Positions 19,945 through 31,895 of a DNA stretch of 64,000 nt are shown here, one piece after another. Both the position numbers and the translations under genes were made by a program. Origin of the DNA: Escherichia phage UPWr_E1; the sequence record PP418985.1; one strand, 5' to 3'. The notes under the pieces are model-generated. The model made no database searches. It worked only from the letters and a program-made list of their open reading frames with translations, and had not been told where the DNA came from. Every line of letters begins with the position of its first letter. The stretch's first letter is position 1.

Positions 19945-20413
19945 AATTGATATCTATGCGGGTGGACCTTATCCATCGGGTGAATTGAGTAATTTCAATA
20001 AAAGACCATTCCGTCTATTTGGTTGCGATATTAACAGCACAGAAGGATTTTTACAGGGGCTAAGATTTAAGAACCCTCAGAGACAAAGAGAAATCTTTTT
20101 GATGCACGGTGGCAAAGCAAAAAGAACCGGAAGAACTGAAAAGATTGAGAATCACATGTTATATTTTCAGGGTCGCCAGATTCATCGAATGAGTGAGCAT
20201 TATTACAGACTGGTACATCTGGCATTTGTTACGATGGCACGGAATAACCCAGAATTTTGTAAAGCATTACTCGCTACAGGAAATAAGAAATTACGTCATA
20301 GTATAGGTGGAACTGATCCGTTAAAGACCATATTGACCGAATCGGAATTTTGTAGTATCCTCAATGATATTCGTGAACGTTTAACAAAACGAGGTGAAAA
20401 TGTCAATTCTTAA
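19934..20413 (+). CDS. NADAR (YbiA-like) domain protein, putative ADP-ribose processing enzyme
   Basis: 159 aa; IYAGGPYPSGELSNFNKRPF..STEGFLQGLRF matches NADAR core pattern; motif-level call only. Confidence 0.45.
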   Translation: MTSEIDIYAGGPYPSGELSNFNKRPFRLFGCDINSTEGFLQGLRFKNPQRQREIFLMHGGKAKRTGRTEKIENHMLYFQGRQIHRMSEHYYRLVHLAFVTMARNNPEFCKALLATGNKKLRHSIGGTDPLKTILTESEFCSILNDIRERLTKRGENVNS

Positions 20414-21896
20414 TATCATTAATCAGCTTGCAGCAACAGACAAAACATCTCTGAAAGAAAAGATTCTGAAAGAATCTGCAAGCAATGAAACACTGAAAGA
20501 ATGCTTTTATCTGGCATATTGCAAACAGGTTACGTTTGGCGTAAAGAAATACGATAAACCATCGCGTTATTCGTCTGTATTGTCTTTATCTGGTGCATTA
20601 CAGGTCTTTAAAAATAAACTTGCCACGCGTCAAGTAACTGGTAATGCAGCATTACAGCTAGTTACCGATACTCTGACTTGCTTGTCAGAAGATGATGCTA
20701 AAGTTGCAATGATGGTCCTGAATCGCGATCTAGAATGCGGTTGTTCCGCTACCACTGCAAACAAGGTATGGAAGAAACTGATCCCCCAGCAACCATGCCA
20801 CCTTGCATCGTCATATTCTGATAAGGCTATTGCTAATATCAAATATCCGGCATATGCACAACTTAAAAGTGATGGCGCTCGTGGTATGGCTGATATTGAC
20901 GGGGAAACATTAGCAATCTATACCCGTTCAGGTAATACCTATCAGGGACTTGATGATTTGTTTGCTGTTTTAGAGCGTCTACGAGGCCGTGGAATTGTTC
21001 TAGATGGCGAATTGGTATATATGCCTACCCTTTCGCAAACACCAGCGCAGAACTTCGTTGAAAGCGTTTATGATGGTACTCTGTCATGGATATTTGAAGA
21101 AGAGGAAATGCCATTAACGCCAGTAGCGGAAGCAGTAAAAGAATCCGTTGTTGCAGATCGTCAGACCGGAAATGGTATCCTCAACAAATCACTGAAAGGA
21201 ACTATTCCAAAAGAAGAAGCCCAATGTATTGTTTACACTGTCTGGGATGTTATCGACCGTGATGTGTATTACGGAAACGAGAAAGCAACGAAGCAATATA
21301 AAGATCGATTCGAAGAACTAAAACAGATTGTTGAAGAACTTAACGATCCTCGTGTGCAGATAATCGAAAATACTGTAGTTAACAATATCGATGAAGCTCG
21401 CGAAGTATATCATCGCTATGTAAACATGGGCTTAGAAGGTATTATCCTTAAAAATTTACATGGTGTATTTGAAGATCGTCGCAGTAAAGATCAGGTTAAA
21501 TTTAAAGAAGTGATTGACTTCGACGCGGAAATTGTTGATGTATATCCGCATAGTAAAGATCCTAATAAGGTAGGCGGTTTTACTGTCCGTAGCGCGTGCG
21601 GACGAATGATGACTAACACCGGATCGGGATTGACAGACACCACAACCGAAAAAGGTGATGATGGTATCGAACGTGTGATTCCGTTAGATCGTCGAAATGA
21701 ACTTGACCGAGAAATGTTATGGGCTGACCGTCATAACCTGATTGGAAAAGTCATCGAGATGACATGCAACGGGTATATCCGCAGCAAATCACGTAAAGAA
21801 GATGAACCGGAGTTCTCTTTATTTCTCCCGATCATCAAACGTATTCGCTACGACAAGACCACTGCAAATACAGTAAAAGAGGTATTCGATGTGTGA
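20400..21896 (+). CDS. 30: ATP-dependent DNA ligase
   Basis: 498 aa; adenylation motif KSDGAR, LDGELVY, EGIILKN; strong similarity to T4 gp30. Confidence 0.9.
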   Translation: MSILNIINQLAATDKTSLKEKILKESASNETLKECFYLAYCKQVTFGVKKYDKPSRYSSVLSLSGALQVFKNKLATRQVTGNAALQLVTDTLTCLSEDDAKVAMMVLNRDLECGCSATTANKVWKKLIPQQPCHLASSYSDKAIANIKYPAYAQLKSDGARGMADIDGETLAIYTRSGNTYQGLDDLFAVLERLRGRGIVLDGELVYMPTLSQTPAQNFVESVYDGTLSWIFEEEEMPLTPVAEAVKESVVADRQTGNGILNKSLKGTIPKEEAQCIVYTVWDVIDRDVYYGNEKATKQYKDRFEELKQIVEELNDPRVQIIENTVVNNIDEAREVYHRYVNMGLEGIILKNLHGVFEDRRSKDQVKFKEVIDFDAEIVDVYPHSKDPNKVGGFTVRSACGRMMTNTGSGLTDTTTEKGDDGIERVIPLDRRNELDREMLWADRHNLIGKVIEMTCNGYIRSKSRKEDEPEFSLFLPIIKRIRYDKTTANTVKEVFDV

Positions 21897-22365
21897 TAAT
21901 GAAGGGGCGAAAGCCCCTAAACCTAAAAAATTGTCAAAGAAAGAGCAACGCCAGATCCTGAAAATGAAATACGGTGGACGTTGTGCCTATTGTGGCGAGG
22001 AACTAGGGGATCGCTGGCACGCAGACCACATCAAACCAGTATTACGACGCTCAAAAGTAGTCTATGATGAAAATGGACGAATTGCCCGTAATGATGATGG
22101 ATCGTGGAAGTATAAGGTTGTAGGAATGCATAAACCGGAGCATGATATACTTGATAACATGAATCCGGCGTGTGTGCAATGCAATCTTTATAAAAGCTGT
22201 ATGGGCTTAGAATACTGGCGTAAGTGTATACGCGAGAACTTCCAGAAGTACATTCAGCGCAATATGGGATTGCGAGCGGCTAAACGCTTTGGCTTACTGT
22301 CAATCCACGATCAGCCAGTAGAATTTTATTTCGAAAAGTACGAGCGCGAGCATCAAGAAAAATAA
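21889..22365 (+). CDS. HNH endonuclease
   Basis: 158 aa; CAYCG..HADHIKP..N..CVQCN HNH/zinc-finger motif; overlaps ligase stop. Confidence 0.6.
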   Translation: MCDNEGAKAPKPKKLSKKEQRQILKMKYGGRCAYCGEELGDRWHADHIKPVLRRSKVVYDENGRIARNDDGSWKYKVVGMHKPEHDILDNMNPACVQCNLYKSCMGLEYWRKCIRENFQKYIQRNMGLRAAKRFGLLSIHDQPVEFYFEKYEREHQEK

Positions 22366-22378
22366 TTCAAAAAAGTTG

Positions 22379-22407
22379 TTGACAGGGGATCACCGATCCC
22401 CTATACT
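22379..22407 (+). promoter_or_regulatory. PeSL-type early promoter (hairpin spacer)
   Basis: TTGACA, 17-nt palindromic spacer ggggatcaccgatcccc, TATACT. Confidence 0.55.
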
Positions 22408-22441
22408 ACACACATACCGAAACGAACTAGGAGAATCAATT

Positions 22442-22621
22442 ATGAACTTCAACGAAATCATCGCTAAAATCCGCTACAACGAAGAAACCATTGAACTGAT
22501 GCAAAACAATATCACCAATGGCTATATGATTGCAGCGTCACAAGAAATCATTGATTTGACAGTAGCAGAAAATGCTCAGTTGAAACATCAACTTTCTACG
22601 GCTGGCGTGATTGTGATGTAA
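22442..22621 (+). CDS. Hypothetical protein, 59 aa
   Basis: ATG after conserved RBS aggagaatcaatt. Confidence 0.45.
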   Translation: MNFNEIIAKIRYNEETIELMQNNITNGYMIAASQEIIDLTVAENAQLKHQLSTAGVIVM

Positions 22622-22640
22622 TTTAACGAGAGGTAACTAA

Positions 22641-22907
22641 ATGAAGACAGTAAAAGATATCGTAGACAATCGCAAAGATGCAGTGGGTAAAATTTTTCAA
22701 TTACCAGAATCACCGATTGGACTTATTATCTACGTAACAGAAGATGATGTGTATGCTATTTGGAACGGCAACGATACATTCCACCCAGGAAACGGTCATC
22801 TGATCAATACTATGGAAGGTGAAGAACCACAACCAGTACACTTACTGGCACACAGTGTCACTATCGACGAACTGGAAGATGCAGCTAAACATATTCGGAG
22901 CATGTAA
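22641..22907 (+). CDS. Small protein, divergent member of HxHW paralog family
   Basis: 88 aa; IIYVTEDDVYAIW strand and His-rich segment. Confidence 0.45.
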   Translation: MKTVKDIVDNRKDAVGKIFQLPESPIGLIIYVTEDDVYAIWNGNDTFHPGNGHLINTMEGEEPQPVHLLAHSVTIDELEDAAKHIRSM

Positions 22908-22908
22908 C

Positions 22909-23229
22909 ATGGCAAAAGTTCAGGTAGGTGAAGTATTCAAAATGGCGGACCATACCGTAGAAGAGATGAAAGGTGCGGTACTGAAAGCAACCAATTCTAT
23001 GATGCGTAGTGTCCTTTACATCAACTTTATCGATGGTGATGTGTGGTGGGCTAGCGATAGTTGCAAATGGGATGAAGATTGTAACTTGGTTATCAAGTTC
23101 GGCAAAGGTCATAATCACTGGCTAGGAACAGAGGATGTTGTAGAAGTGCTGGCGGTTGATATTATGCCTAGCGAGATCGATAATCTTACTGGAACTGCAA
23201 ACGAAGTATTGACACGACATTTTGTGTAA
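22909..23229 (+). CDS. HxHW-family small protein
   Basis: 106 aa; YINFIDGD..GHNHW..VLAVDI. Confidence 0.5.
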   Translation: MAKVQVGEVFKMADHTVEEMKGAVLKATNSMMRSVLYINFIDGDVWWASDSCKWDEDCNLVIKFGKGHNHWLGTEDVVEVLAVDIMPSEIDNLTGTANEVLTRHFV

Positions 23230-23286
23230 TGTAATATAACAATCATTGGGAGGGGCAATACTCTCCCACAAATTGAGGATAATATT

Positions 23287-23589
23287 ATGGAACGTACCAA
23301 TTTGTTTGTAACCGAACCTTTCGTTGAAGGCAACAAGAACCTTGCTAATACGGTTATTCTTTACGAAGATTGGATCTTTTACATCGATGAGAATTTAGAT
23401 GTATATTGTCGTCCAACTCCAAATGACTCATTCTATATCGAAGAAAACGATACCCATAATCATTGGTATGACGGAAACGACGAAACCGATCTTGCTATTG
23501 TTCTCGAATCCGGCGTAGAATCGGAACATGCCGATGAAGTAGCAGACAAATTTATGAAATACGCATATAAAGATAAAGATGAAGAATAA
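23287..23589 (+). CDS. HxHW-family small protein
   Basis: 100 aa; FYIDENLDVY..THNHW..LAIVLE. Confidence 0.5.
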   Translation: MERTNLFVTEPFVEGNKNLANTVILYEDWIFYIDENLDVYCRPTPNDSFYIEENDTHNHWYDGNDETDLAIVLESGVESEHADEVADKFMKYAYKDKDEE

Positions 23590-23596
23590 AAAGTTG

Positions 23597-23625
23597 TTGA
23601 CAGGGGATCGGTGATCCCCTATAAT
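23597..23625 (+). promoter_or_regulatory. PeSL-type early promoter
   Basis: TTGACA, palindromic spacer ggggatcggtgatcccc, TATAAT. Confidence 0.55.
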
Positions 23626-23659
23626 GCACACATACCAACGAGATATAGGAGAATCAAAA

Positions 23660-23827
23660 ATGTTCCAGACTAAAGCAGAATGCGAAGCATACATTGTAGC
23701 AAACCACGGTGAAGACTACCTGAAATTCGATATCGTAGTAGCACAGAAGATCACCGGAATGGTTGCAAAATATCTGGGTGTTAAAGAAGGTTACTATCCA
23801 AGCAACGCACCGGAAATTAACAAATAA
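23660..23827 (+). CDS. Hypothetical protein, 55 aa
   Basis: ATG after RBS aggagaatcaaaa. Confidence 0.45.
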   Translation: MFQTKAECEAYIVANHGEDYLKFDIVVAQKITGMVAKYLGVKEGYYPSNAPEINK

Positions 23828-23830
23828 TAG

Positions 23831-23859
23831 TTGACAATGATTAAAGGGAGTAGTAAGAT
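23831..23859 (+). promoter_or_regulatory. PeSL-type early promoter
   Basis: TTGACA; hairpin gggag-tagtaagata-ctccc containing -10. Confidence 0.5.
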
Positions 23860-23892
23860 ACTCCCATCAAGACAACAAACGGAGAATCAAAA

Positions 23893-24072
23893 ATGAAAGC
23901 TATCGAAGTTCAGAAGTACATGGAAATCATCGTTGAAGGTAAAGCACATACAGTATTGACTACTCACGTAGGATATGATAAAAATGTGCATATGCTGGTA
24001 GACAATATCGGTTGGATGAAGTTTAATCCTAACGAGAATGTACAAGCTCAAGAAATGACCATCCCTTTCTAA
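23893..24072 (+). CDS. Hypothetical protein, 59 aa
   Basis: ATG after RBS ggagaatcaaaa; below track cutoff. Confidence 0.4.
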   Translation: MKAIEVQKYMEIIVEGKAHTVLTTHVGYDKNVHMLVDNIGWMKFNPNENVQAQEMTIPF

Positions 24073-24084
24073 GAGGAATATATT

Positions 24085-24363
24085 ATGATGCGAATTACTG
24101 CAACACTGGATAAGACACACAAAGAAAGATTTTTCGGTATGATCTTAAAAACGCCGATTTTCGATAATTACCTTTATGTTGACTATGAAGGTCACATTAG
24201 CTATAAATGTAAAAATGATATTCGTGATTCCTTTGGTGATAAATCACAAGCTGATATTCATGACCACTGGTGGACCTTCGACGAACCTTTACGGATTATC
24301 GCAGTTGATGTAAAAACAATAAAAGAAGCTGATAAGGTAGTTAACAATTATGAGCAAATTTAA
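24085..24363 (+). CDS. HxHW-family small protein
   Basis: 92 aa; LYVDYEGHISY..IHDHWW..IIAVDV. Confidence 0.5.
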   Translation: MMRITATLDKTHKERFFGMILKTPIFDNYLYVDYEGHISYKCKNDIRDSFGDKSQADIHDHWWTFDEPLRIIAVDVKTIKEADKVVNNYEQI

Positions 24364-24559
24364 AGATTATAAAGCATATCAACAGATCCTGCGAGTATAC
24401 GAACCAGAGTTCGCCGAAAAGATGATGGAAGATGCATCAAAATGCCCGTCCTTTTCTGGAAACAAAAACCATTATTCGACTGGTATTGTGTCATGGAAAG
24501 AAACCGCATATACTCAACAATGGATAGATGTGTTTTCAAAAACTCTTGAGTGGTGTTAA
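24350..24559 (+). CDS. Small protein, 69 aa (MSKFKDY paralog 1)
   Basis: MSKFKDYKAY...MMEDA...W.VF; tandem paralog of next ORF. Confidence 0.5.
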   Translation: MSKFKDYKAYQQILRVYEPEFAEKMMEDASKCPSFSGNKNHYSTGIVSWKETAYTQQWIDVFSKTLEWC

Positions 24560-24561
24560 TT

Positions 24562-24777
24562 ATGAGCAAATTTAAAGATTATCGAGCATATAAAGCGATC
24601 TGCGATATATTCGATGAAAAGACCGCTCATGCAATGATGGAAGATGCAGAACAATATGAATCATTCGTCAATTCCAAAGATTGCACAGTAAACGGGATTG
24701 TGTGCTGGAAAGATACAAAGTATGAAGAAAAATGGATTACCGTGTATTACGGAGAACTAGAATATGAAATTAACTAA
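24562..24777 (+). CDS. Small protein, 71 aa (MSKFKDY paralog 2)
   Basis: MSKFKDYRAY...MMEDA; tandem paralog of previous ORF. Confidence 0.5.
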   Translation: MSKFKDYRAYKAICDIFDEKTAHAMMEDAEQYESFVNSKDCTVNGIVCWKDTKYEEKWITVYYGELEYEIN

Positions 24778-25066
24778 AAAGATTTTCCCAGAATTGCGTA
24801 ACTGTCTGTTATTGGTTACTGAATATAAGCCGTATACGATCTACTTGTATGTTGATGAAAATCTGAAAATCCGTTACTATGATTATACGTCTCCAGTGAT
24901 GAAATCATTTGCTCACTCGATAGCAAATAACTGTATGAATCATAATCATTGGGTATCAGAAACGGATGACGATGCGTCAGAAGTTGTAGTGGTTGCATGG
25001 AATCTATCACCAGCGGAAGCAGATCAAGCACGCATTAAGCATTATGCGAAAAAACAATTGGTTTGA
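24764..25066 (+). CDS. HxHW-family small protein
   Basis: 100 aa; LYVDENLKIRYY..NHNHW..VVVVAW. Confidence 0.5.
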   Translation: MKLTKKIFPELRNCLLLVTEYKPYTIYLYVDENLKIRYYDYTSPVMKSFAHSIANNCMNHNHWVSETDDDASEVVVVAWNLSPAEADQARIKHYAKKQLV

Positions 25067-25089
25067 CCTTATAAGTGAGGACTAATATT

Positions 25090-25368
25090 ATGTTCAAAGT
25101 AGGTGATAAGTTTATTCTTAGTCGTGATATTCTCCCTAATCTGAAAGGTTGTATCATCAATCCTAGTAAAAATTCATGGTTTTATCTGTTTATCGACGAT
25201 TCTCTAAATGTACGCGCCGAATATAAAGAAGGTCTTCGTACTGGCCTCGGTTTCTTTCACGATCACGATCATAGCCATTGGCTAAACGGTGGATTCGAAG
25301 CAACGGTGCTAGCGGTTGATGTGACCTACACAAACATCATAGAAAAATACCAAAAAATTATTTTATAA
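25090..25368 (+). CDS. HxHW-family small protein
   Basis: 93 aa; LFIDDSLNV..HDHDHSHW..VLAVDV. Confidence 0.5.
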   Translation: MFKVGDKFILSRDILPNLKGCIINPSKNSWFYLFIDDSLNVRAEYKEGLRTGLGFFHDHDHSHWLNGGFEATVLAVDVTYTNIIEKYQKIIL

Positions 25369-25374
25369 AAAGTG

Positions 25375-25403
25375 TTGACATAAGATCGGGTGTATAGCAT
25401 AAT
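25375..25403 (+). promoter_or_regulatory. PeSL-type early promoter
   Basis: TTGACA; hairpin gggtgtat-agcataa-tacaccc containing CATAAT. Confidence 0.55.
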
Positions 25404-25449
25404 ACACCCATCGAAACGAGATACACTTTCTAACTAGGAGAATCAAATT

Positions 25450-25737
25450 ATGGCATACATCACTATCACGCTGAAAGTTAACAAATTTGCTCACGCTGCA
25501 CACGAAACCGATAATGCAATCCGTAACAACAAGTTTGCACGTCTGGTACGCGATGCAGTAGCTAAAGAGTTCAACTTCAAATTTGCAGATGGTAAAGTTA
25601 TCACTAAATGGACTCATGGCGGCGAAACTAAAGTAGAACTTGCTGATAACTTCGCAAATCAGGAATATGCACACCGTCGCATTAATGAAATTATCAGCGA
25701 CGAACTCTACTACGGTGTACAGGAAGGACTGTTTTAA
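25450..25737 (+). CDS. Hypothetical protein, 95 aa
   Basis: ORF after conserved leader and RBS. Confidence 0.5.
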   Translation: MAYITITLKVNKFAHAAHETDNAIRNNKFARLVRDAVAKEFNFKFADGKVITKWTHGGETKVELADNFANQEYAHRRINEIISDELYYGVQEGLF

Positions 25738-25743
25738 TATATG

Positions 25744-25764
25744 GGGGCGTTAACGCCCCTTTTC
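25744..25764 (+). terminator. Rho-independent terminator
   Basis: ggggcg-ttaa-cgcccc followed by tttt. Confidence 0.6.
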
Positions 25765-25787
25765 ATCCAACTATTGAGGATAATACT

Positions 25788-26093
25788 ATGAAAGATAATA
25801 TCTTTGAATTTACCCGCGAAAATCTCCCAATGTTCCGAAAGTCTCTGCTTAAACTAGATAACAGTAATTATGATGTATATTTTTACATCACAGAAGACCT
25901 AGAGATCCTTTACGCTGATTACCCTGGTCCGATCCGTACTTTCGAAAAAGCATCAAAGTATAAAAATGTGCACGGTCACACGCACTGGCTACGAGAAAAT
26001 TCAGTCAAGAAAGCGCGCGTTAAAGTGATTGCAATTGACGTAACGCCGGAACATGCTGACCGGATTGCACAGAATGATTATTTGTCTAAATGA
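25788..26093 (+). CDS. HxHW-family small protein
   Basis: 101 aa; YFYITEDLEILY..HGHTHW..VIAIDV. Confidence 0.5.
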   Translation: MKDNIFEFTRENLPMFRKSLLKLDNSNYDVYFYITEDLEILYADYPGPIRTFEKASKYKNVHGHTHWLRENSVKKARVKVIAIDVTPEHADRIAQNDYLSK

Positions 26094-26101
26094 TTTTATT
26101 A

Positions 26102-26124
26102 GCCGACCTTAGTGTCGGCTTTTT
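26102..26124 (+). terminator. Rho-independent terminator (copy 1 of repeated cassette)
   Basis: gccgac-cttagt-gtcggc followed by ttttt; identical hairpin at 26607. Confidence 0.65.
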
Positions 26125-26151
26125 ATTGCCAAAAATTTTTTAAAAAAGGCA

Positions 26152-26180
26152 TTGACACCAGATCCTGTATATAGCATAAT
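26152..26180 (+). promoter_or_regulatory. Early promoter
   Basis: TTGACA-17-CATAAT then acacccatcgaaacga leader. Confidence 0.5.
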
Positions 26181-26207
26181 ACACCCATCGAAACGAGATT
26201 GAGGGAA

Positions 26208-26393
26208 ATGAAGATGAAGATTTTATACAAGCATGGATGGTATAAAGTAAAAGCTATCGCCGATGGAGTCAAATATGAAGTGATTGTATTTGACGGATTC
26301 AACACTTATTGCGAAGATGTTAAATTGCCTTCAATGGGATGTGCTTATGATTATTGCAAACAAAGAATTGATAATAAAGCCAACTGCTTCTGA
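26208..26393 (+). CDS. Hypothetical protein, 61 aa
   Basis: ATG after RBS gaggga; 4 Cys residues. Confidence 0.45.
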   Translation: MKMKILYKHGWYKVKAIADGVKYEVIVFDGFNTYCEDVKLPSMGCAYDYCKQRIDNKANCF

Positions 26394-26606
26394 CCCGCTA
26401 AATGACGTAGAACCGCCAACTTGCAAAGCGGACTGTCCTTATAGACAAGAATTTAGGGGGGTATGATTTGCAAAGAAATGCTCTAAGAACCGAAACGGTT
26501 AGCATGGTCAGCAAATATCGATGCGGTTGGAATATTAAGCCTGGTAGGATTGGCGGTCATCCTCTAGATTATGAGGCTTGCATATATAGCAAGAATTTTA
26601 AAATGT

Positions 26607-26630
26607 GCCGACCTTAGTGTCGGCTTTTTT
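26607..26630 (+). terminator. Rho-independent terminator (copy 2 of repeated cassette)
   Basis: gccgac-cttagt-gtcggc followed by tttttt. Confidence 0.65.
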
Positions 26631-26654
26631 ATTTCCAAAAAATTAAAAAAGTTG

Positions 26655-26683
26655 TTGACACCTGATCACGCCTATAGCATAAT
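26655..26683 (+). promoter_or_regulatory. Early promoter
   Basis: TTGACA-17-CATAAT. Confidence 0.5.
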
Positions 26684-26723
26684 ACACACATCGAAACGAG
26701 ATACCACTTAGGAGAATCAAACA

Positions 26724-26993
26724 ATGGCACTGACTAAAACCACTACCAGCTTTGCAAAACGTCACGGTTTCGACCTTGAAATCAATAGCTTTGAAGATTA
26801 CACCCTTCTGTGTGTATATGAAATCGAAAATGATTGCGAGTGGATGTTCAGCTATCGCGTAAACGAAGACGGATCTTTCACTTGGAACGGAAATATCTAT
26901 CTTGCACAGGAAGTAAAAGAAGAACTTCCGGCGACTATCAAAGATGAGAAACATTTACGTCAAGTTTTAAAATTTATTTCTGAAAATATCTAA
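26724..26993 (+). CDS. Hypothetical protein, 89 aa
   Basis: ORF after RBS taggagaatcaaaca. Confidence 0.5.
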   Translation: MALTKTTTSFAKRHGFDLEINSFEDYTLLCVYEIENDCEWMFSYRVNEDGSFTWNGNIYLAQEVKEELPATIKDEKHLRQVLKFISENI

Positions 26994-27002
26994 AAAAAGT
27001 TG

Positions 27003-27031
27003 TTGACACCAAAGTAAGAACATAGCATAAT
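27003..27031 (+). promoter_or_regulatory. Early promoter
   Basis: TTGACA-17-CATAAT. Confidence 0.5.
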
Positions 27032-27064
27032 ACACCCATACCGAAACGAACGGGAGAATCAAAA

Positions 27065-27346
27065 ATGAAATTCATCAAAGCAACCGAAATCCTGAAAAAC
27101 AAAGAAGCATACATCGGAAACATCGTTGGTATGAACATTCGCGGCGCGGGTAGCCAGTGGACCAAACTGGTTGATGTTAAAGCTAAAGGCGATAAAATCG
27201 AGTTCACTGTAAAAATGCTTACTCATAACGCACATATGGGTATCAAGACAAAAACTATGGCAGCAGATAAAAGCATCAACTATCAAGACCTGGGCGATTG
27301 GCTGAACTGGTGCAAAATGTACAACATCGAAACTAATCACGAATAA
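27065..27346 (+). CDS. Hypothetical protein, 93 aa
   Basis: ORF after RBS gggagaatcaaaa. Confidence 0.5.
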   Translation: MKFIKATEILKNKEAYIGNIVGMNIRGAGSQWTKLVDVKAKGDKIEFTVKMLTHNAHMGIKTKTMAADKSINYQDLGDWLNWCKMYNIETNHE

Positions 27347-27360
27347 TTTTAAAAAAGTTG

Positions 27361-27390
27361 TTGACGGGGGATCGGGAGATCCCCTATAAT
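27361..27390 (+). promoter_or_regulatory. PeSL-type early promoter
   Basis: TTGACG, palindromic spacer ggggatcgggagatcccc, TATAAT. Confidence 0.55.
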
Positions 27391-27430
27391 ACACACATCA
27401 AGACGAGATACTACTTAGGAGAATCAAACA

Positions 27431-27682
27431 ATGGCTAACATCGAAACCGCAAAGAAAATCGCTAAAGACCTGAACGTTAAAGGCTTCCGTAAACTGAAAT
27501 TACAGCGTGTACGCTACACCATCGGCAAACAGTGCTCTTTCATGAGCGAAGAAGTTGCTAACAGCCTCATCGATAATCTGATTGCGGCTGGCTGGGAAGT
27601 TGCGGATCTGAAAACTTGCCGCGAACTGGCTAACAAAGGTCTTTTAGATTCTGTTACTATCAAACCAATGGGGGCAGCGTGA
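27431..27682 (+). CDS. Hypothetical protein, 83 aa
   Basis: Starts MANIE, sharing its first 16 nt with ORF 29565. Confidence 0.5.
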   Translation: MANIETAKKIAKDLNVKGFRKLKLQRVRYTIGKQCSFMSEEVANSLIDNLIAAGWEVADLKTCRELANKGLLDSVTIKPMGAA

Positions 27683-28395
27683 AACAAAAATTAATATTCT
27701 GCAACTTTGACGGATCGGGGATAATGGGGCTAGAATGGGCTAAAGCAGGTCATAAGGTGATCTGCTTTAATGCTGACGATGGCGACCACGGTACATACAA
27801 AAAATATAATACCCGATTTGAACATCCAAACATTACCTATGTAAACACATGGATTGATTTGAACTGGCTGGAAAGAGCAATGGACCTTGAATGGGGGAAA
27901 CCGGATATTATATTTGCATTCCCACCGTGCACCAATTTAGCTGTTAGTGGCGCTGCACACTTTGAACGAAAGAAACGAGAGCAAGGACCATTAATTCAAG
28001 TTCATGATGTAAGGGCAGCTAAAATAACCGCTTATTTGGGCGAATGGTTAGGAGTTCCCTACATGATAGAGAATCCTGTAAGCGTTATCTCTAGCATGTG
28101 GCGTAAGCCTGATTATATGTTCCATCCGTGGGAATATGGCGGTTATTTGCCGGAAGATGATAAACATCCTACGTTTCCTGAGTATATTGCCGCCCGTGAT
28201 ATGTACCCGAAAAAGACTTGCTTATGGACCGGACAAGGCTTTATAATGCCAGAAAAGAAACCGTTGCAGATTAATAAAGGGTACAGTAAACAGCATTCTA
28301 AGCTAGGCGGGAAAGGAACCAGAACAAAGACTATCAGGTCACTTACACCGCGAGGATTCGCAAAGGCAGTATTTGAAGCCAATAAGGATCTATGA
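27679..28395 (+). CDS. DNA (cytosine-5)-methyltransferase-like protein
   Basis: 238 aa; motif I-like FDGSGIMGLEWAKAGHKVICFNADD, motif IV-like FPPCTNLAVSG, motif VI-like ENP; short for a complete C5-MTase. Confidence 0.4.
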   Translation: MKQKLIFCNFDGSGIMGLEWAKAGHKVICFNADDGDHGTYKKYNTRFEHPNITYVNTWIDLNWLERAMDLEWGKPDIIFAFPPCTNLAVSGAAHFERKKREQGPLIQVHDVRAAKITAYLGEWLGVPYMIENPVSVISSMWRKPDYMFHPWEYGGYLPEDDKHPTFPEYIAARDMYPKKTCLWTGQGFIMPEKKPLQINKGYSKQHSKLGGKGTRTKTIRSLTPRGFAKAVFEANKDL

Positions 28396-28724
28396 TGAGA
28401 TTGTTTAAGTATTCGCTAACGTCAAATTACGATAAACAAGGTCATTGCATCCGTTGCCCTGATTGCCATAGCCATAACATCGAAAGCAGGATCACCGATC
28501 ATATTGATGGACTTTGGTCGCCAGCAAGCGAGATAGAATACTATTGCGCTGATTGCGGAATTGTAGTAGCATATTGGGCATACGGATCATATGATCCCTA
28601 CTTCCAGATGGGAGAGCGTTCAATCCCTGCGCTTATCTGGAGAATTAAGAACAATATCCGCCATTCATGGGATGAGTTCTTAAAAGATATTGATTTACGT
28701 GATGATCCATTCAGGAGACTATAA
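28392..28724 (+). CDS. Zinc-ribbon protein, 110 aa
   Basis: CIRCPDCHSH ... CADCG cysteine pairs. Confidence 0.45.
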   Translation: MMRLFKYSLTSNYDKQGHCIRCPDCHSHNIESRITDHIDGLWSPASEIEYYCADCGIVVAYWAYGSYDPYFQMGERSIPALIWRIKNNIRHSWDEFLKDIDLRDDPFRRL

Positions 28725-28725
28725 C

Positions 28726-29244
28726 ATGAACCGTTTAACACCTAAACGCCGTTACTATACCAATACTAAAAACTTTGTCATCTCTGTTTATGAGGCGTGG
28801 TTAGAAGATGGCTATATCAACATGAACCCAGATTATCAGCGTCCTTTAGTATGGGACACCGAAAACAAACGTATGTTTATCGAAAACCTGATTAATGATT
28901 TTCCGGTTGGTGCTATCGCAATGGCTAAGATTGATGATGGCTCTCGCTATGAGATCGAAATCGTGGACGGTAAACAGCGTTTAAACGCAATATTCTCCTT
29001 TATGAAGGATGAGTTTAGCATTGCTGGTAATGATGATTCTATGCTGTATTACAGTGATTTTACGCCAGCAGAAAAGCGACGTTTCCGAAATCTCGGACTA
29101 CCCGCGATCATGATGGAAGAGAGCACAAGAGAAGACCGATTAGAGTATTTCTACAAAACAAACTTTTTCGGTGTTCCTCAATCGGAAGAACATCGCCAGC
29201 ATGTGATTGCCCTATTGCAAGATGAGCAATTAAAAAATAACTAA
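28726..29244 (+). CDS. DUF262 / ParB-like nuclease-domain protein
   Basis: 172 aa from ATG after RBS caggaga; NPDYQRPLVW and VDGKQRLNAI match the DUF262 signature (compare DGQQR). Confidence 0.45.
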   Translation: MNRLTPKRRYYTNTKNFVISVYEAWLEDGYINMNPDYQRPLVWDTENKRMFIENLINDFPVGAIAMAKIDDGSRYEIEIVDGKQRLNAIFSFMKDEFSIAGNDDSMLYYSDFTPAEKRRFRNLGLPAIMMEESTREDRLEYFYKTNFFGVPQSEEHRQHVIALLQDEQLKNN

Positions 29245-29252
29245 AAAAGTTG

Positions 29253-29281
29253 TTGACAGGGGATCATCGATCCCCTATAAT
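29253..29281 (+). promoter_or_regulatory. PeSL-type early promoter
   Basis: TTGACA, palindromic spacer ggggatcatcgatcccc, TATAAT. Confidence 0.55.
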
Positions 29282-29313
29282 ACACACATACCGAAACGAA
29301 AGGAGAATCAAAC

Positions 29314-29493
29314 ATGAAACACTTAACCATCGAATCGGCAATCATCGCAATCGCTAAAGTTCAAGCGGCTTATAATTGCACTGACATTGAAGCCATTTCA
29401 AAAATGCAAGCAGAAGCCGCAAAAGCAGGTGACGAGAAATCTTTAGATGTTCTCTGCGAAATCAAAGCAGAATTAATTTCAAAAATGTTCTAA
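29314..29493 (+). CDS. Hypothetical protein, 59 aa
   Basis: ATG after RBS aaggagaatcaaac; below track cutoff. Confidence 0.4.
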   Translation: MKHLTIESAIIAIAKVQAAYNCTDIEAISKMQAEAAKAGDEKSLDVLCEIKAELISKMF

Positions 29494-29499
29494 AAGTTG

Positions 29500-29528
29500 T
29501 TGACATAACAGAGGGTGTATATCATAAT
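29500..29528 (+). promoter_or_regulatory. PeSL-type early promoter
   Basis: TTGACA; hairpin gggtgtat-atcataa-tacaccc containing CATAAT. Confidence 0.55.
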
Positions 29529-29564
29529 ACACCCATACCGAAACGAACTACTAAGGAGTATCAA

Positions 29565-29843: not shown

Positions 29844-31895
29844 ATGTTTAACTTAGAAATCGACGATCTAATGATTGAATCTTTCGAGAAATGGCTGTTG
29901 ACGGAAGAGGAAGAAAACTTTGGTAGTATTGCTCCGGTACAGTGCTTAAAGCCTAAGCAGAACCCTAAACAGCTTTTTGCAGTACAGACACGCGATAAAG
30001 ATGTGATTGTCCGTCTTTGTAACTTCACCAACAAAACACCTAAAATCATTCGTCTTGGTGACAAGACCGCACATGTTGTACTGTGCGAAATGAACAAAAG
30101 CGGTCGTATTGTACAGCTTAAAAATGGTCTAGGCGATAACCCGATTGCAGTTATGGCAAGTGCTTTTGATGTGGTTATGGAAACAGCCCGTAAAGCGCAA
30201 TTAGACGCTGTTATGTTCCGTTTTAACGTATCCCGCATGAAAGGTAAGACCGAACTGGTTAAGCGCGTTATAGAGCGTTTGGTGCGTCGTACACCTAAGT
30301 TTGAAGTATTCCAGCAGGAAGTAATGACCAGCAAAAAGATCGCTTTAGTTGTTGTCAAGCGTCGCGGGATGGCGATTGATAAGATTAAAGGGATTAAACT
30401 TGATGATTCCCTGTTCACTAAAGTAGAAAGTGATTTAGGTGATCGCTGGGTATCTAAAGCTACTGGCGAATCTCTGACTAAAGATGAAGCGTATGCGGCT
30501 AGCCTTGCATCAGAAGAAGAACGAAACGCAGAAGCGGAACAACGTGTAGCGGCTAAGTCTCGTTTGACTAAAGAAGAAATGCTGAAAACTCAAGCGACCT
30601 ATAACAGCGACTATGTGAATCATCCAGAAAAAATTAATCTTAAACCGGAAGAAGATATCACCGAAGCCGAACCTAAGAAACAGTTTAATACTCTGATTGA
30701 TCGTCAAGCCTTAGAACGTTCAACCGCTCGTTCTCTGAATGACTGGACAAGTGATATTATCACTCGCTACGGTTTCATGCGTACTATTTTTGAAAGCGAA
30801 GCCGATGCAAAATACGCAGTAAGCGAACTGGTAAAAGTTCAGGACCAATATGATCCGTTGTCTGCGGAAGTTATTGCAGCATCAATCAAACGCTTAAAAG
30901 AAATCATGAGCGAGGAAGTATTCGAAAACAAGATCACCGCCCTGGCAATGGATCGAGTAGACCAGTCTATGCCAGCAGATGTAAAAGCTGAAATGCTTCG
31001 TAGTCACATCACACAGATTAAAACCGATGCCCTACGTAATGTTGCTTCCGGTATGTTTGAAGCAATTGCTAGCAACATGGGTGAAATGATGGCAAATATT
31101 GATCTTGATCTGCCGGGCGCGGAAGGTTTTGTGTTGAGCGAATATGCCGATGCAGCATACATCAATATGAACAACTTCCTAACCGACCGTAAGCTGGAAG
31201 AGTTTGACGGCATCGCAGATCCAGAAGAATTGGTCAAGATGTGCGATGCACTGGATAATGCCTTCTCTAACTATGGCGTTAAACTTGATCCGGGTACTAT
31301 TCTGTATCGTGGTATGGACTTCCGGTCTCAAATGTGGGAAACTGCACGTAAGCAAAAAGCGTTTTACTTTAAAAACTATGTGAGCACTTCCCTTGCACCT
31401 AACATTTTTGGTGGCTGGAATGCAAACGTGGCTAGTGCCGTTGCTGGTGTAGATTCTATGGCTGGATCTCGCGGTGAAGGTGGCGCTAATGTTGCTTTCT
31501 CCATTGCTGGCGCGGAAAACATCCCTGTATTGCCAGTAGGTAACAAGGCATTTGCTTACAAAGAATGCGAGATTTTACTTCCTCGCGGTGTTGTGTTATC
31601 CTTTGATACGGTAACTCGTGCTACGGCATCGACGGATTCACAAGAAACTTATTACATTGAGGCACATATTATGAACAAAAATGAACTGGCAGCATTACAA
31701 GAATCTGGCGAGATGATCGCGGACGGTGATGCATTCATCCGTGAAGGTGTTGTTAAACCTGCTTCTGACCTGTCTTTCTCCAGCTTTATTACCGAAGCTA
31801 AAACCGAACGTAAGAAAGCAGATAAGGCAACTCTACGTCAGCTTATCGCTGATCTGGTATCTGTAGACGCAATGCCAGATAAATTTAAAATGTAA
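29844..31895 (+). CDS. alt: Alt-like ADP-ribosyltransferase (packaged, modifies host RNA polymerase in T4)
   Basis: 683 aa (T4 Alt is 682 aa); C-terminal R-S-E type ART motifs LYRG, YVSTSL, ECEILLP. Confidence 0.7.
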   Translation: MFNLEIDDLMIESFEKWLLTEEEENFGSIAPVQCLKPKQNPKQLFAVQTRDKDVIVRLCNFTNKTPKIIRLGDKTAHVVLCEMNKSGRIVQLKNGLGDNPIAVMASAFDVVMETARKAQLDAVMFRFNVSRMKGKTELVKRVIERLVRRTPKFEVFQQEVMTSKKIALVVVKRRGMAIDKIKGIKLDDSLFTKVESDLGDRWVSKATGESLTKDEAYAASLASEEERNAEAEQRVAAKSRLTKEEMLKTQATYNSDYVNHPEKINLKPEEDITEAEPKKQFNTLIDRQALERSTARSLNDWTSDIITRYGFMRTIFESEADAKYAVSELVKVQDQYDPLSAEVIAASIKRLKEIMSEEVFENKITALAMDRVDQSMPADVKAEMLRSHITQIKTDALRNVASGMFEAIASNMGEMMANIDLDLPGAEGFVLSEYADAAYINMNNFLTDRKLEEFDGIADPEELVKMCDALDNAFSNYGVKLDPGTILYRGMDFRSQMWETARKQKAFYFKNYVSTSLAPNIFGGWNANVASAVAGVDSMAGSRGEGGANVAFSIAGAENIPVLPVGNKAFAYKECEILLPRGVVLSFDTVTRATASTDSQETYYIEAHIMNKNELAALQESGEMIADGDAFIREGVVKPASDLSFSSFITEAKTERKKADKATLRQLIADLVSVDAMPDKFKM

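What the first reader, a model, noticed from the sequence alone, without database searches (positions are those of the whole stretch)
22641..26093. Tandem array of seven small paralogs with a conserved HxHW motif
ORFs at 22641, 22909, 23287, 24085, 24764, 25090 and 25788 (88-106 aa) share a common architecture: an N-terminal hydrophobic strand ending Y(V/I)D-E/D (LYVDENL, FYIDENL, FYITEDL, LFIDDSL), a His-rich motif H-x-H-W (GHNHW, THNHW, IHDHWW, NHNHW, HSHW, HTHW), then (V/I)(L/I)A(V/I)DV. The family has diversified heavily inside the promoter-cassette island. I do not recognise the fold; the histidine cluster suggests metal binding. Diversifying paralog arrays in phage early regions are often host-takeover or anti-defence factors.
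Basis: seen in the sequence. Interest (0 to 1): 0.6.

Follow-up and report, generated by a model that had tools for sequence, protein, structure and literature searches.

The report
Small early-gene paralog family in RB49-like phage
Seven small neighbouring genes in the early accessory region of an RB49-type (T4-like) E. coli phage are real, conserved copies of one protein family of unknown function. No known family or solved structure resembles it, so it is typical phage "dark matter" rather than a recognisable system.

Summary
The window is a Krischvirus (RB49-like) phage, about 92% identical in DNA to RB49, GEC-3S and FL20.

- **Core family:** six ORFs (22909, 23287, 24085, 24764, 25090, 25788) form a statistically solid paralog family. 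In leave-one-out HMM tests each is recovered at E 4.5e-5 to 4e-13. H-x-H-W occurs 6 times here against about 1.4 expected in the whole six-frame window.
- **Seventh ORF (22641):** a divergent member that lacks HxHW but keeps the one invariant His. Profile-profile probability is 92% (E 7e-7), and there is a Foldseek hit consistent with its JSE ortholog.
- **Real genes:** Shine-Dalgarno sites are present and dN/dS is 0.06-0.25. The six core genes keep the same order in all six relatives examined.
- **Single array:** it lies in the ligase-alt hyperplastic region, behind PeSL early promoters.
- **Narrow distribution:** an exhaustive HMMER scan of 1.84 billion representatives gave 19 clusters. All whose source was traced come from Krischvirus-type phages. 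The 22641 subfamily also occurs at Salmonella prophage ends.

Function is unknown. My best guess is diversified target-binding modules for host takeover or anti-defence. Metal binding is possible but weakly supported, because only one His is invariant.

The parts
22641..22907 (+). p1: divergent family member, 88 aa. It has GNGHL in place of HxHW and keeps the invariant His. It is an accessory gene, found in only 8 phage records. Its closest outside relatives sit at Salmonella prophage ends.
22909..23229 (+). p2: family member, 106 aa, motif GHNHW. Ortholog of RB49 ORF208. PHROG 16486.
23287..23589 (+). p3: family member, 100 aa, motif THNHW, very acidic (pI 4.1). Ortholog of RB49 ORF206. PHROG 15965.
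24085..24363 (+). p4: family member, 92 aa, motif IHDHWW. Ortholog of RB49 ORF203. PHROG 15972.
24764..25066 (+). p5: family member, 100 aa, motif NHNHW. Ortholog of RB49 ORF200. PHROG 9345.
25090..25368 (+). p6: family member, 92 aa, motif HDHDHSHW. Ortholog of RB49 ORF199. PHROG 17255. AF2 model has pLDDT 89.2.
25788..26093 (+). p7: family member, 101 aa, motif GHTHW. Ortholog of RB49 ORF197. PHROG 9345. It lies between two terminator hairpins. Only shortened forms (85 and 80 aa) were found for phages kvi and JSE.
22358..22426 (+). PeSL early-promoter cassette (TTGACA-17-TATACT with a GGGGATC...GATCCCC stem). It heads the unit made of the 59-aa ORF, p1, p2 and p3.
   Evidence: PMC2839356
23576..23644 (+). 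PeSL cassette after p3 (TTGACA-17-TATAAT, 12 of 12 matches). It sits between the orthologs of RB49 ORF206 and ORF205, so it probably corresponds to PeSL206/205, which gave about 13,000 Miller units in a lacZ fusion.
23831..23859 (+). Sigma-70-like early promoter. It heads the unit made of the 59-aa ORF, p4, two MSKFKDY ORFs, p5 and p6.
25354..25422 (+). PeSL cassette after p6. It heads the 95-aa ORF at 25450-25737.
25743..25763 (+). GC hairpin followed by a T run (GGGGGCGTTAACGCCCCTTTT), directly upstream of p7. A terminator is annotated at the equivalent place in GEC-3S. The consensus scan here did not report it.
26101..26120 (+). Terminator-like hairpin after p7, followed by the next PeSL at 26131-26199.

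Best explanation
This is an old, lineage-restricted family of small (88-106 aa), soluble, early-expressed accessory proteins of Krischvirus (RB49-type) phages. It arose by tandem duplication inside the hyperplastic region between DNA ligase (gene 30) and alt.

Shown:
- There are seven members in the window, six canonical and one divergent.
- They form a single array in the genome.
- Each paralog is conserved and under purifying selection.
- AF2 models of two members (p7 and p6), each built on a family alignment, give the same order of secondary-structure elements: five beta-strands, with a variable loop and a short helix carrying H-x-H-W inserted between strands 4 and 5, then a C-terminal helix.
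- No detectable relative has a known function or a solved structure.

Inferred mechanism: each paralog is a cytoplasmic binding module, an inhibitor or adaptor. It is made in the first minutes of infection from sigma-70 PeSL promoters and docks onto a different host macromolecule or ligand, or a phage one. The conserved Tyr/His/Trp core holds the fold or forms a common contact. The fast-evolving loop just before the motif, the residues just after it, and the strongly diverged surface charge (pI 4.1-7.9) would set target specificity. The most likely role is host takeover or counter-defence. The genes are probably dispensable individually, since only shortened p7 forms were found for two isolates and p1 is present in only some phages.
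For: - **Family reality:**
- **Coding and selection:** Shine-Dalgarno sites. dN/dS is 0.06-0.25 for all six core genes across seven genomes.
- **Conserved order:** the same order holds in GEC-3S, RB49, FL20, SFHK24, kvi and PHB13.
- **Single array:** there are no other members in the 64-kb window or in the rest of RB49.
- **Early expression context:** PeSL promoters. PeSL promoter and terminator activity was shown experimentally in RB49 and phi1 (PMC2839356).
- **Fold:** the p6 AF2 model has pLDDT 89.2 and pTM 0.84, and the p7 model 79.8 and 0.76, with the same order of elements. BFVD Foldseek recovers the paralogs at TM 0.7-0.8.
- **Soluble, with diverged surfaces:** no transmembrane segment, net charge from -19 to +1.
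- **Variable loop:** within ortholog groups, variability and indels concentrate in the loop before HxHW in p2, p4, p5 and p6 (3-6 times the rest). The same is seen by eye in p3 in the profile. In p7 the segment after the motif is the more variable one.
- **Fusion and tandem arrangement in a distant relative:** contig L003 carries a 203-aa natural fusion of two domains next to two further members. This fits modules that act side by side or as oligomers.
- **Accessory nature:** only shortened p7 forms (85 and 80 aa) were found for kvi and JSE. p1 is in only 8 phage records. p1-like genes sit at the outer end of Salmonella prophages, next to host genes.
- **Neighbourhood:** the same region holds an HNH endonuclease, a DNA methyltransferase, a GmrSD_N-domain protein and Alt.
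Against: - There is no direct evidence for any target, for toxicity or for an anti-defence effect.
- No paper on these ORFs was found.
- Overall dN/dS is below 0.25, so there is no gene-wide positive selection. The variable-loop pattern could simply reflect relaxed constraint on a surface loop.
- An invariant His is unusual for a pure scaffold and could indicate catalysis or metal or ligand binding instead.
- Expression timing is inferred from promoters, not measured in this phage.
Confidence: 0.45

Rival explanations
1. The proteins are small metalloproteins or metal-dependent mini-enzymes. The two His of HxHW, with carboxylates from Y(V/I)D(E/D) and A(V/I)DV, would hold Zn, Fe, Ni or Mn and either catalyse a reaction or stabilise an oligomer.
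For: - The second His is invariant in all 41 aligned members. The first His is conserved in the core subfamilies (at least 90% of the 23-sequence alignment).
- At least one acidic residue always follows the conserved Tyr strand.
- p6 carries an alternating His run, HDHDHSHW.
Against: - Only one potential ligand is invariant.
- The first His is Ser in P0083/P0084, is missing in P0088, and is Asn or Gln throughout the p1 subfamily.
- The Asp of AVDV is Asn in p5, Gly in p3, and Ser or His in p1-type proteins.
- There are no Cys ligands.
- No Pfam or PDB relative is a metalloprotein.
Confidence: 0.2
2. The proteins are KOW/SH3-like modules that dock onto the host transcription or translation machinery (RNA polymerase or the ribosome), as NusG/Spt5 KOW domains and SH3-like ribosomal proteins do. 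On this view they reprogramme host gene expression early in infection.
For: - One public record names a p6 ortholog "KOW2-KOW3 domains of Spt5" (P0057).
- The N-termini of p6 and p2 read FKVGDK...LKG.II, which looks KOW-like by eye.
- From general knowledge of T4, many of its early proteins target RNA polymerase.
Against: - The Pfam KOW model is not hit even at E up to 10 in any of 41 members.
- The KOW-like N-terminal motif is absent from p3, p4, p5 and p7.
- There is no interaction evidence.
Confidence: 0.1
3. The proteins are sponges or enzymes for nucleotide immune signals, working like Tad1, Tad2, Acb2 or Acb1. Each paralog would sequester or cleave a different second messenger, using the His and Trp as the binding pocket.
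For: - They are small, soluble, early-expressed phage proteins with a conserved His/Trp pair next to variable loops.
- A natural tandem fusion hints at oligomeric pockets.
Against: - The structural scores are not significant.
- There is no sequence similarity to any known sponge family.
- The distribution is very narrow, with 19 clusters worldwide. From general knowledge, known sponge families are more widespread.
Confidence: 0.07
4. The ORFs are not functional genes. On this view the shared motifs are chance or leftovers of duplicated non-coding DNA.
For: None, beyond the lack of any annotation or experimental data.
Against: - Leave-one-out E values reach 4e-13.
- The motif is enriched at 6 occurrences against about 1.4 expected.
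- dN/dS is 0.06-0.25.
- Shine-Dalgarno sites are present.
- The genes are conserved in 50+ phage records and in metagenomes.
- The AF2 models are confident.
Confidence: 0.01

Closest known systems
PHROGs 9345, 16486, 15965, 15972 and 17255 (all "unknown function"): the hypothetical proteins RB49 ORF197, 199, 200, 203, 206 and 208 and their Krischvirus orthologs
   Same: The window proteins are full-length members. Their E values against their own PHROG are 3e-45 to 1.5e-64, and most are 78-100% identical to the orthologs.
   Different: The databases split them into five unrelated-looking families and leave p1 unassigned. Here they are joined, with p1, into one superfamily. No function is attached to any of them.
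PeSL + ORFan cassettes of RB49/phi1 hyperplastic regions (Arbiol et al. 2010, PMC2839356)
   Same: This is the same kind of genomic region. That paper places RB49 ORFan192, from the same ORF cluster, in HPR3. The same ~70-bp early promoter and stem-loop cassettes flank the transcription units that hold the family.
   Different: The family genes are never the PeSL-proximal gene and are not individually flanked by PeSLs. Their order is fixed across the Krischvirus genomes examined, so they behave as stable residents rather than shuffled cassettes. Searches of the paper for "paralog" and "gene family" found no mention of a paralog family.
SH3-like small beta-barrels (KOW, Tudor, Sm/LSm, ribosomal L2/eL14/mS34)
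JAB/MPN (JAMM) metalloproteases and RadC, whose motif is H-[STN]-H-P
   Same: There is a superficial motif resemblance: HSHW, HNHW and HTHW against HSHP, HNHP and HTHP (the JAB motifs are recalled from memory). The p6 group hits PROCT at E 0.002, below the gathering score. As I recall, PROCT is the C-terminal domain of Prp8, which also contains an MPN domain.
Small phage inhibitor and bacterial immunity proteins (Tis1, the immunity protein of the type VI effector Tas1; AcrIIA7; Tad2)
   Different: All scores are below significance. There is no sequence relationship and no functional test.

Membership tests
Krischvirus HxHW small-protein superfamily (PHROGs 9345, 16486, 15965, 15972, 17255) | Significant full-length profile match to the family, built without the tested member | tested here: met
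   Leave-one-out E is 4.5e-5 to 4.1e-13 for p2-p7. PHROG matches are E 3e-45 to 1.5e-64. For p1, hhalign gives probability 91.9% and E 7e-7.
Krischvirus HxHW small-protein superfamily (PHROGs 9345, 16486, 15965, 15972, 17255) | H-x-H-W motif between strand 4 and strand 5 | tested here: met
   Present in p2-p7. Not met for p1, which has GNGHL and keeps only the invariant His.
PeSL + ORFan cassette (Arbiol 2010) | An ORFan directly flanked by PeSL promoter and stem-loop motifs | tested here: not met
   PeSLs lie at 22358, 23576, 25354 and 26131. No family gene is directly flanked on both sides, and all are second or later genes of their units.
KOW domain (NusG/Spt5, Pfam PF00467) | Match to the KOW profile | tested here: not met
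   No KOW hit at E up to 10 in 41 members.
KOW domain (NusG/Spt5, Pfam PF00467) | SH3-like five-stranded barrel | tested here: inconclusive
JAB/MPN (JAMM) metalloprotease | The E...HxH-x7-S-x2-D motif on an MPN fold | tested here: not met
Metallo-beta-lactamase fold (HxHxDH) | The alpha-beta/beta-alpha sandwich of 200+ aa with the HxHxDH motif | tested here: not met
HNH endonuclease | Match to an HNH nuclease profile | tested here: not met
   No HNH Pfam hit. The letters H-N-H in HNHW are coincidental: other members read HSHW, HTHW and HDHW.
Known anti-defence proteins (Tad2, AcrIIA7) and known defence-system components (PADLOC) | Sequence or significant fold similarity | tested here: not met
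Structural or catalytic metal site | At least three conserved ligand residues in a geometry able to coordinate a metal | not testable with these tools
   Only one His is invariant. Model coordinates are not returned by the tools, so geometry could not be measured.

The most novel reading that the evidence does not exclude
The family could be a previously unrecognised fold class of phage counter-defence or host-takeover effectors. The invariant His, with or without a bound metal or nucleotide, would be the common warhead. The hypervariable flanking loops would retarget each of the seven paralogs to a different host immune sensor or signal. It would then be a small "effector repertoire" fixed in Krischvirus and shared with Salmonella prophages.
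Probability: 0.15. Interest if true: 0.7.

Novelty: new variant of a known kind. Interest (0 to 1): 0.35.

Why it matters
RB49-type phages are used in therapy cocktails. Their hyperplastic regions are thought to hold adaptive genes, yet almost none of these has a known function.

This work collapses five "unknown" PHROGs and one unassigned ORF into a single seven-member superfamily. The superfamily has one invariant His, a confident predicted fold with no solved relative, and a link to Salmonella prophage accessory genes. That gives a compact, testable target set: seven genes, one point mutation each. It can be used to ask what T4-like early ORFans do.

If the genes turn out to be counter-defence or takeover effectors, the array would be a clear example of an ancient gene expansion fixed as a repertoire. 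If not, it remains ordinary phage dark matter.

Tried and rejected
- **Family libraries.** Pfam (E up to 1 for the seven, E up to 10 for 41 members), NCBIfam and PADLOC gave nothing above cut-off. The sub-threshold hits were PROCT, the MSC_0621 epsilon subunit and SIR2.
- **PDB sequence profile search.** Only chance hits appeared at E 0.5 or worse: GFP, PhtD and IsdC.
- **AFDB50 Foldseek.** The library was not available.
- **HNH idea.** Rejected, because the middle residue varies.
- **Extra members.** None were found elsewhere in the window or in the rest of RB49.
- **Pseudoalteromonas N4-like phage pYD6-A.** Its 87-aa protein is a Foldseek hit with probability 0.98. hhalign does not support homology (probability 4.5%), so I treat it as a structural analogue only.
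- **The search for related loci.** The family alignment failed for lack of a conserved 7-mer. A single distant member found nothing in IMG/VR.
- **Literature.** Searches for Krischvirus, RB49 and the RB49 locus tags returned nothing on these ORFs.
- **Compensatory ligand swap.** I looked for a swap between the first His and the AVDV Asp. The p1 subgroup contains N with D, N or Q with H, and N with S, so the pattern is not consistent.


Full report
**1. What the window is**

The 22-27 kb stretch is about 92% identical in DNA to RB49-like T4-type coliphages (genus Krischvirus: FL20, RB49, GEC-3S, kvi, JSE and others). There were 58 matching phage records.

The finding lies between DNA ligase (gene 30) with an HNH endonuclease, at 20394-22365, and the Alt ADP-ribosyltransferase, at 29844-31895. 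This is an ORFan-rich hyperplastic region of RB49. The region is punctuated by ~70-bp PeSL cassettes, each an early sigma-70 promoter plus a stem-loop. These were described and tested experimentally by Arbiol et al. 2010 (PMC2839356). I find such cassettes at 22358, 23576, 25354, 26131, 26634, 26982, 27348, 29232 and 29479. The promoter hexamers are near-consensus.

**2. Checking the observation**

All seven ORFs exist with the stated lengths. Each is preceded by a GGAG/GAGGA Shine-Dalgarno sequence. The quoted motifs are present.

Pairwise identities are low, 14-31%, so I tested significance in three ways.

- *Leave-one-out HMMs.* For each of the six HxHW ORFs, a model built from the other five ranks the omitted one first among all 590 six-frame ORFs of the window. 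E values are 4.5e-5 to 4.1e-13, and the next ORF scores E 0.012 or worse.
- *Motif count.* H-x-H-W occurs 8 times in the six-frame translation of 64 kb. Six of these fall in these ORFs, within 2.9 kb. Shuffled sequence gives 1.4 +/- 1.2.
- *PHROGs.* The six fall into five PHROGs of unknown function, with cross-hits between them.

The seventh ORF (22641) has no HxHW and fails the simple HMM tests. Four other results support it as a divergent member:
- Its own profile, built from five homologues, aligns colinearly with the family profile over 71 columns. Probability is 91.9% and E is 7e-7.
- It is the top non-member among 363 ORFs scanned by hhalign.
- The family HMM, which lacks any p1-type sequence, hits its Salmonella homologue at E 0.0012.
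- The p7 model matches an 88-aa JSE protein in BFVD with probability 0.97. JSE encodes an 88-aa p1 ortholog. I did not check that these are the same protein.

**3. Are they genes?**

Yes. Orthologs of the six occur in the same order in GEC-3S, RB49 (ORFs 208, 206, 203, 200, 199, 197), FL20, SFHK24, kvi and PHB13. Identities to the window proteins are mostly 78-100%, and 56% for p4 in GEC-3S. Pooled Nei-Gojobori dN/dS is 0.15, 0.20, 0.25, 0.22, 0.06 and 0.22 for p2 to p7.

The proteins are soluble, with no hydrophobic segment. Their pI ranges from 4.1 to 7.9.

**4. Anatomy and transcription**

The units, read, are:
- P(22379), then a 59-aa ORF, p1, p2 and p3.
- P(23597), then a 55-aa ORF.
- P(23831), then a 59-aa ORF, p4, two MSKFKDY paralogs, p5 and p6.
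- P(25375), then a 95-aa ORF, a hairpin at 25743, p7, and a hairpin at 26101.

No family gene is the promoter-proximal gene of its unit.

p7 sits between two terminator-like hairpins with no promoter of its own. Only shortened p7 forms were found for kvi (85 aa) and JSE (80 aa), so it is dispensable in those isolates. p1 is present in only 8 phage records.

**5. Distribution**

- A word-indexed search of 5.8 billion proteins found only orthologs of the six. The long contigs carrying them are 163-176 kb, the size of Krischvirus genomes.
- An exhaustive HMMER scan of 1.84 billion cluster representatives found just 19 clusters at E up to 1e-3.
- The more distant clusters I traced come from Krischvirus-like metagenome contigs.
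- In contig L003 the proteins are only 30-47% identical to the window's. It still carries a p2-like gene, a 203-aa fusion of two family domains, a p4-like gene and a p5-like gene side by side. The duplications are therefore older than this divergence.
- Contig L014 has a further variant in the p6 slot.
- No other member exists elsewhere in the window or in the remaining two-thirds of RB49. The family is a single array.
- The p1 subfamily is also common at the outer end of degraded lambdoid-type prophages in Salmonella enterica, next to host genes. Identity is 59-66%, the motif is G-(N/Q)-x-H-L-I, and the neighbours include lambda-type terminase (GpA) and Rha genes. This indicates horizontal exchange between temperate and virulent phages.

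**6. Structure and similarity to known families**

- The AF2 model of p7, built on 23 sequences, has pLDDT 79.8 and pTM 0.76. The model of p6, built on 41 sequences, has pLDDT 89.2 and pTM 0.84.
- Both show the same order of elements. These are strand 1, a short helix, strands 2, 3 and 4, a variable loop, a short helix carrying HxHW, strand 5, and a C-terminal helix.
- The Y(V/I)D(E/D) motif ends strand 3. The A(V/I)DV motif ends strand 5.
- The lower hits are mainly two kinds. One is SH3-like barrels (mS34, eL14, L2, Tudor, LSm, MazF). The other is domains of papain-like proteases.
- BFVD Foldseek returned only family members, plus one 87-aa protein of the N4-like Pseudoalteromonas phage pYD6-A. 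hhalign does not support homology with that protein.
- Pfam, NCBIfam, PADLOC and PDB-sequence searches were negative.
- One public record calls a p6 ortholog "KOW2-KOW3 of Spt5". The Pfam KOW model is not hit.

**7. What is conserved and what varies**

Across 41 members only the second His of the motif is invariant. The Tyr of the strand-3 motif is at least 90% conserved. In the 23-sequence core alignment the Trp is also invariant and the first His is at least 90% conserved.

The first His is Ser in P0083/P0084, is missing in P0088, and is Asn or Gln in the p1 clade. The Asp of AVDV is Asn, Gly, Ser or His in whole subgroups.

Within ortholog groups, substitutions and indels pile up in the loop immediately before HxHW. 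That loop is 3-6 times more variable than the rest in p2, p4, p5 and p6, and the same is visible by eye in p3. In p5 and p7 the residues just after the motif are also variable. The strands and the motif itself are fixed.

**8. Interpretation**

*Shown:* this is an ancient, selectively maintained, lineage-restricted family of small soluble proteins. It sits behind early promoters and has no recognisable relative.

*Inferred:* the proteins act as binding modules, inhibitors or adaptors, whose specificity comes from the variable loops and surface around a conserved Tyr/His/Trp core. They would serve host takeover or counter-defence. I put this at about 0.45.

The rivals, in order, are:
- a metal-dependent mini-enzyme or metalloprotein (0.2)
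- a KOW/SH3-like binder of the transcription or translation machinery (0.1)
- a nucleotide-signal sponge (0.07)

The remaining probability is for something I have not thought of. "Not genes" is refuted.

**9. Novelty and score**

The proteins are already in databases as hypothetical proteins in five separate PHROGs, and the region and its PeSLs are published. Four things appear to be new:
- unifying the five PHROGs, plus p1, into one seven-member superfamily
- the single invariant His
- the absence of any solved fold relative
- the link to Salmonella prophages

None of this is surprising for a T4-like hyperplastic region, and no function follows from it. Interest is 0.35.

Noticed in passing
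window 24350-24559 and 24562-24777 (+): A second paralog pair (69 and 71 aa, both starting MSKFKDY...) sits between p4 and p5. Their first 43 nt are 88% identical (repeat D7). The first has no Pfam hit; the second was not scanned. In RB49 and kvi the annotated genes at this position have different boundaries.
   Followed up: partly
window 25743-25763 and 26101-26120, around p7 (25788-26093): p7 is bracketed by two terminator-like hairpins and has no sigma-70-like promoter of its own. Its expression would need read-through or an unrecognised middle or late promoter. Only shortened p7 forms were found for kvi (85 aa) and JSE (80 aa).
   Followed up: partly
L010-L013 (Salmonella enterica contigs), gene at 10001-10294: Homologues of p1 (59-66% identical) are the last gene at the edge of degraded prophages with lambda-type terminase and Rha genes, next to host genes for a PHP-domain protein and a 2-hydroxyacid dehydrogenase. 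They occur in many Salmonella serovars. This implies gene flow between temperate prophages and virulent T4-like phages.
   Followed up: partly
L003 823-1434 (metagenome contig SRR8048117_15661): This is a 203-aa natural fusion of two family domains, each with its own HNHW motif. It sits directly before two further single-domain members. It hints that the domains work as dimers or side by side.
   Followed up: partly
L017 (Pseudoalteromonas phage pYD6-A, N4-like) about 1.3-8.5 kb: The early region holds a long run of genes for proteins of about 74-106 aa. Many end in a similar helix (...M..LL), and at least two are clear paralogs (2215 and 2482, both starting MQVHLY). One of them matches the p7 model in Foldseek (probability 0.98) without detectable sequence homology. 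It is an analogous small-protein array in an unrelated phage.
   Followed up: partly
window 23230-23286: The window lacks the 63-aa ORF (RB49 ORF207 and its orthologs) that lies between p2 and p3 in RB49, GEC-3S, FL20, SFHK24, kvi and PHB13. Only a short GC hairpin-like sequence (GGGAGGGGCAATACTCTCCC) remains there.
   Followed up: no
window 27679-29244 (+): The same hyperplastic region encodes a 238-aa protein annotated as a DNA methyltransferase in relatives. It also encodes a 110-aa protein with a weak zinc-ribbon hit and a 184-aa protein with a clear GmrSD_N (DUF262) domain (E 5e-20). This is a nucleic-acid-modification or restriction-type module inside a phage early region.
   Followed up: partly
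window 22358-29547: Nine PeSL cassettes lie within 7 kb, in two sequence subtypes. One has a GGGGATC...GATCCCC stem and the other an ATAGCATAATACACCC type. Copies are up to 90% identical (repeat families D1-D4). Some are preceded by a shared terminator module (26102 and 26607, 80% identical).
   Followed up: partly
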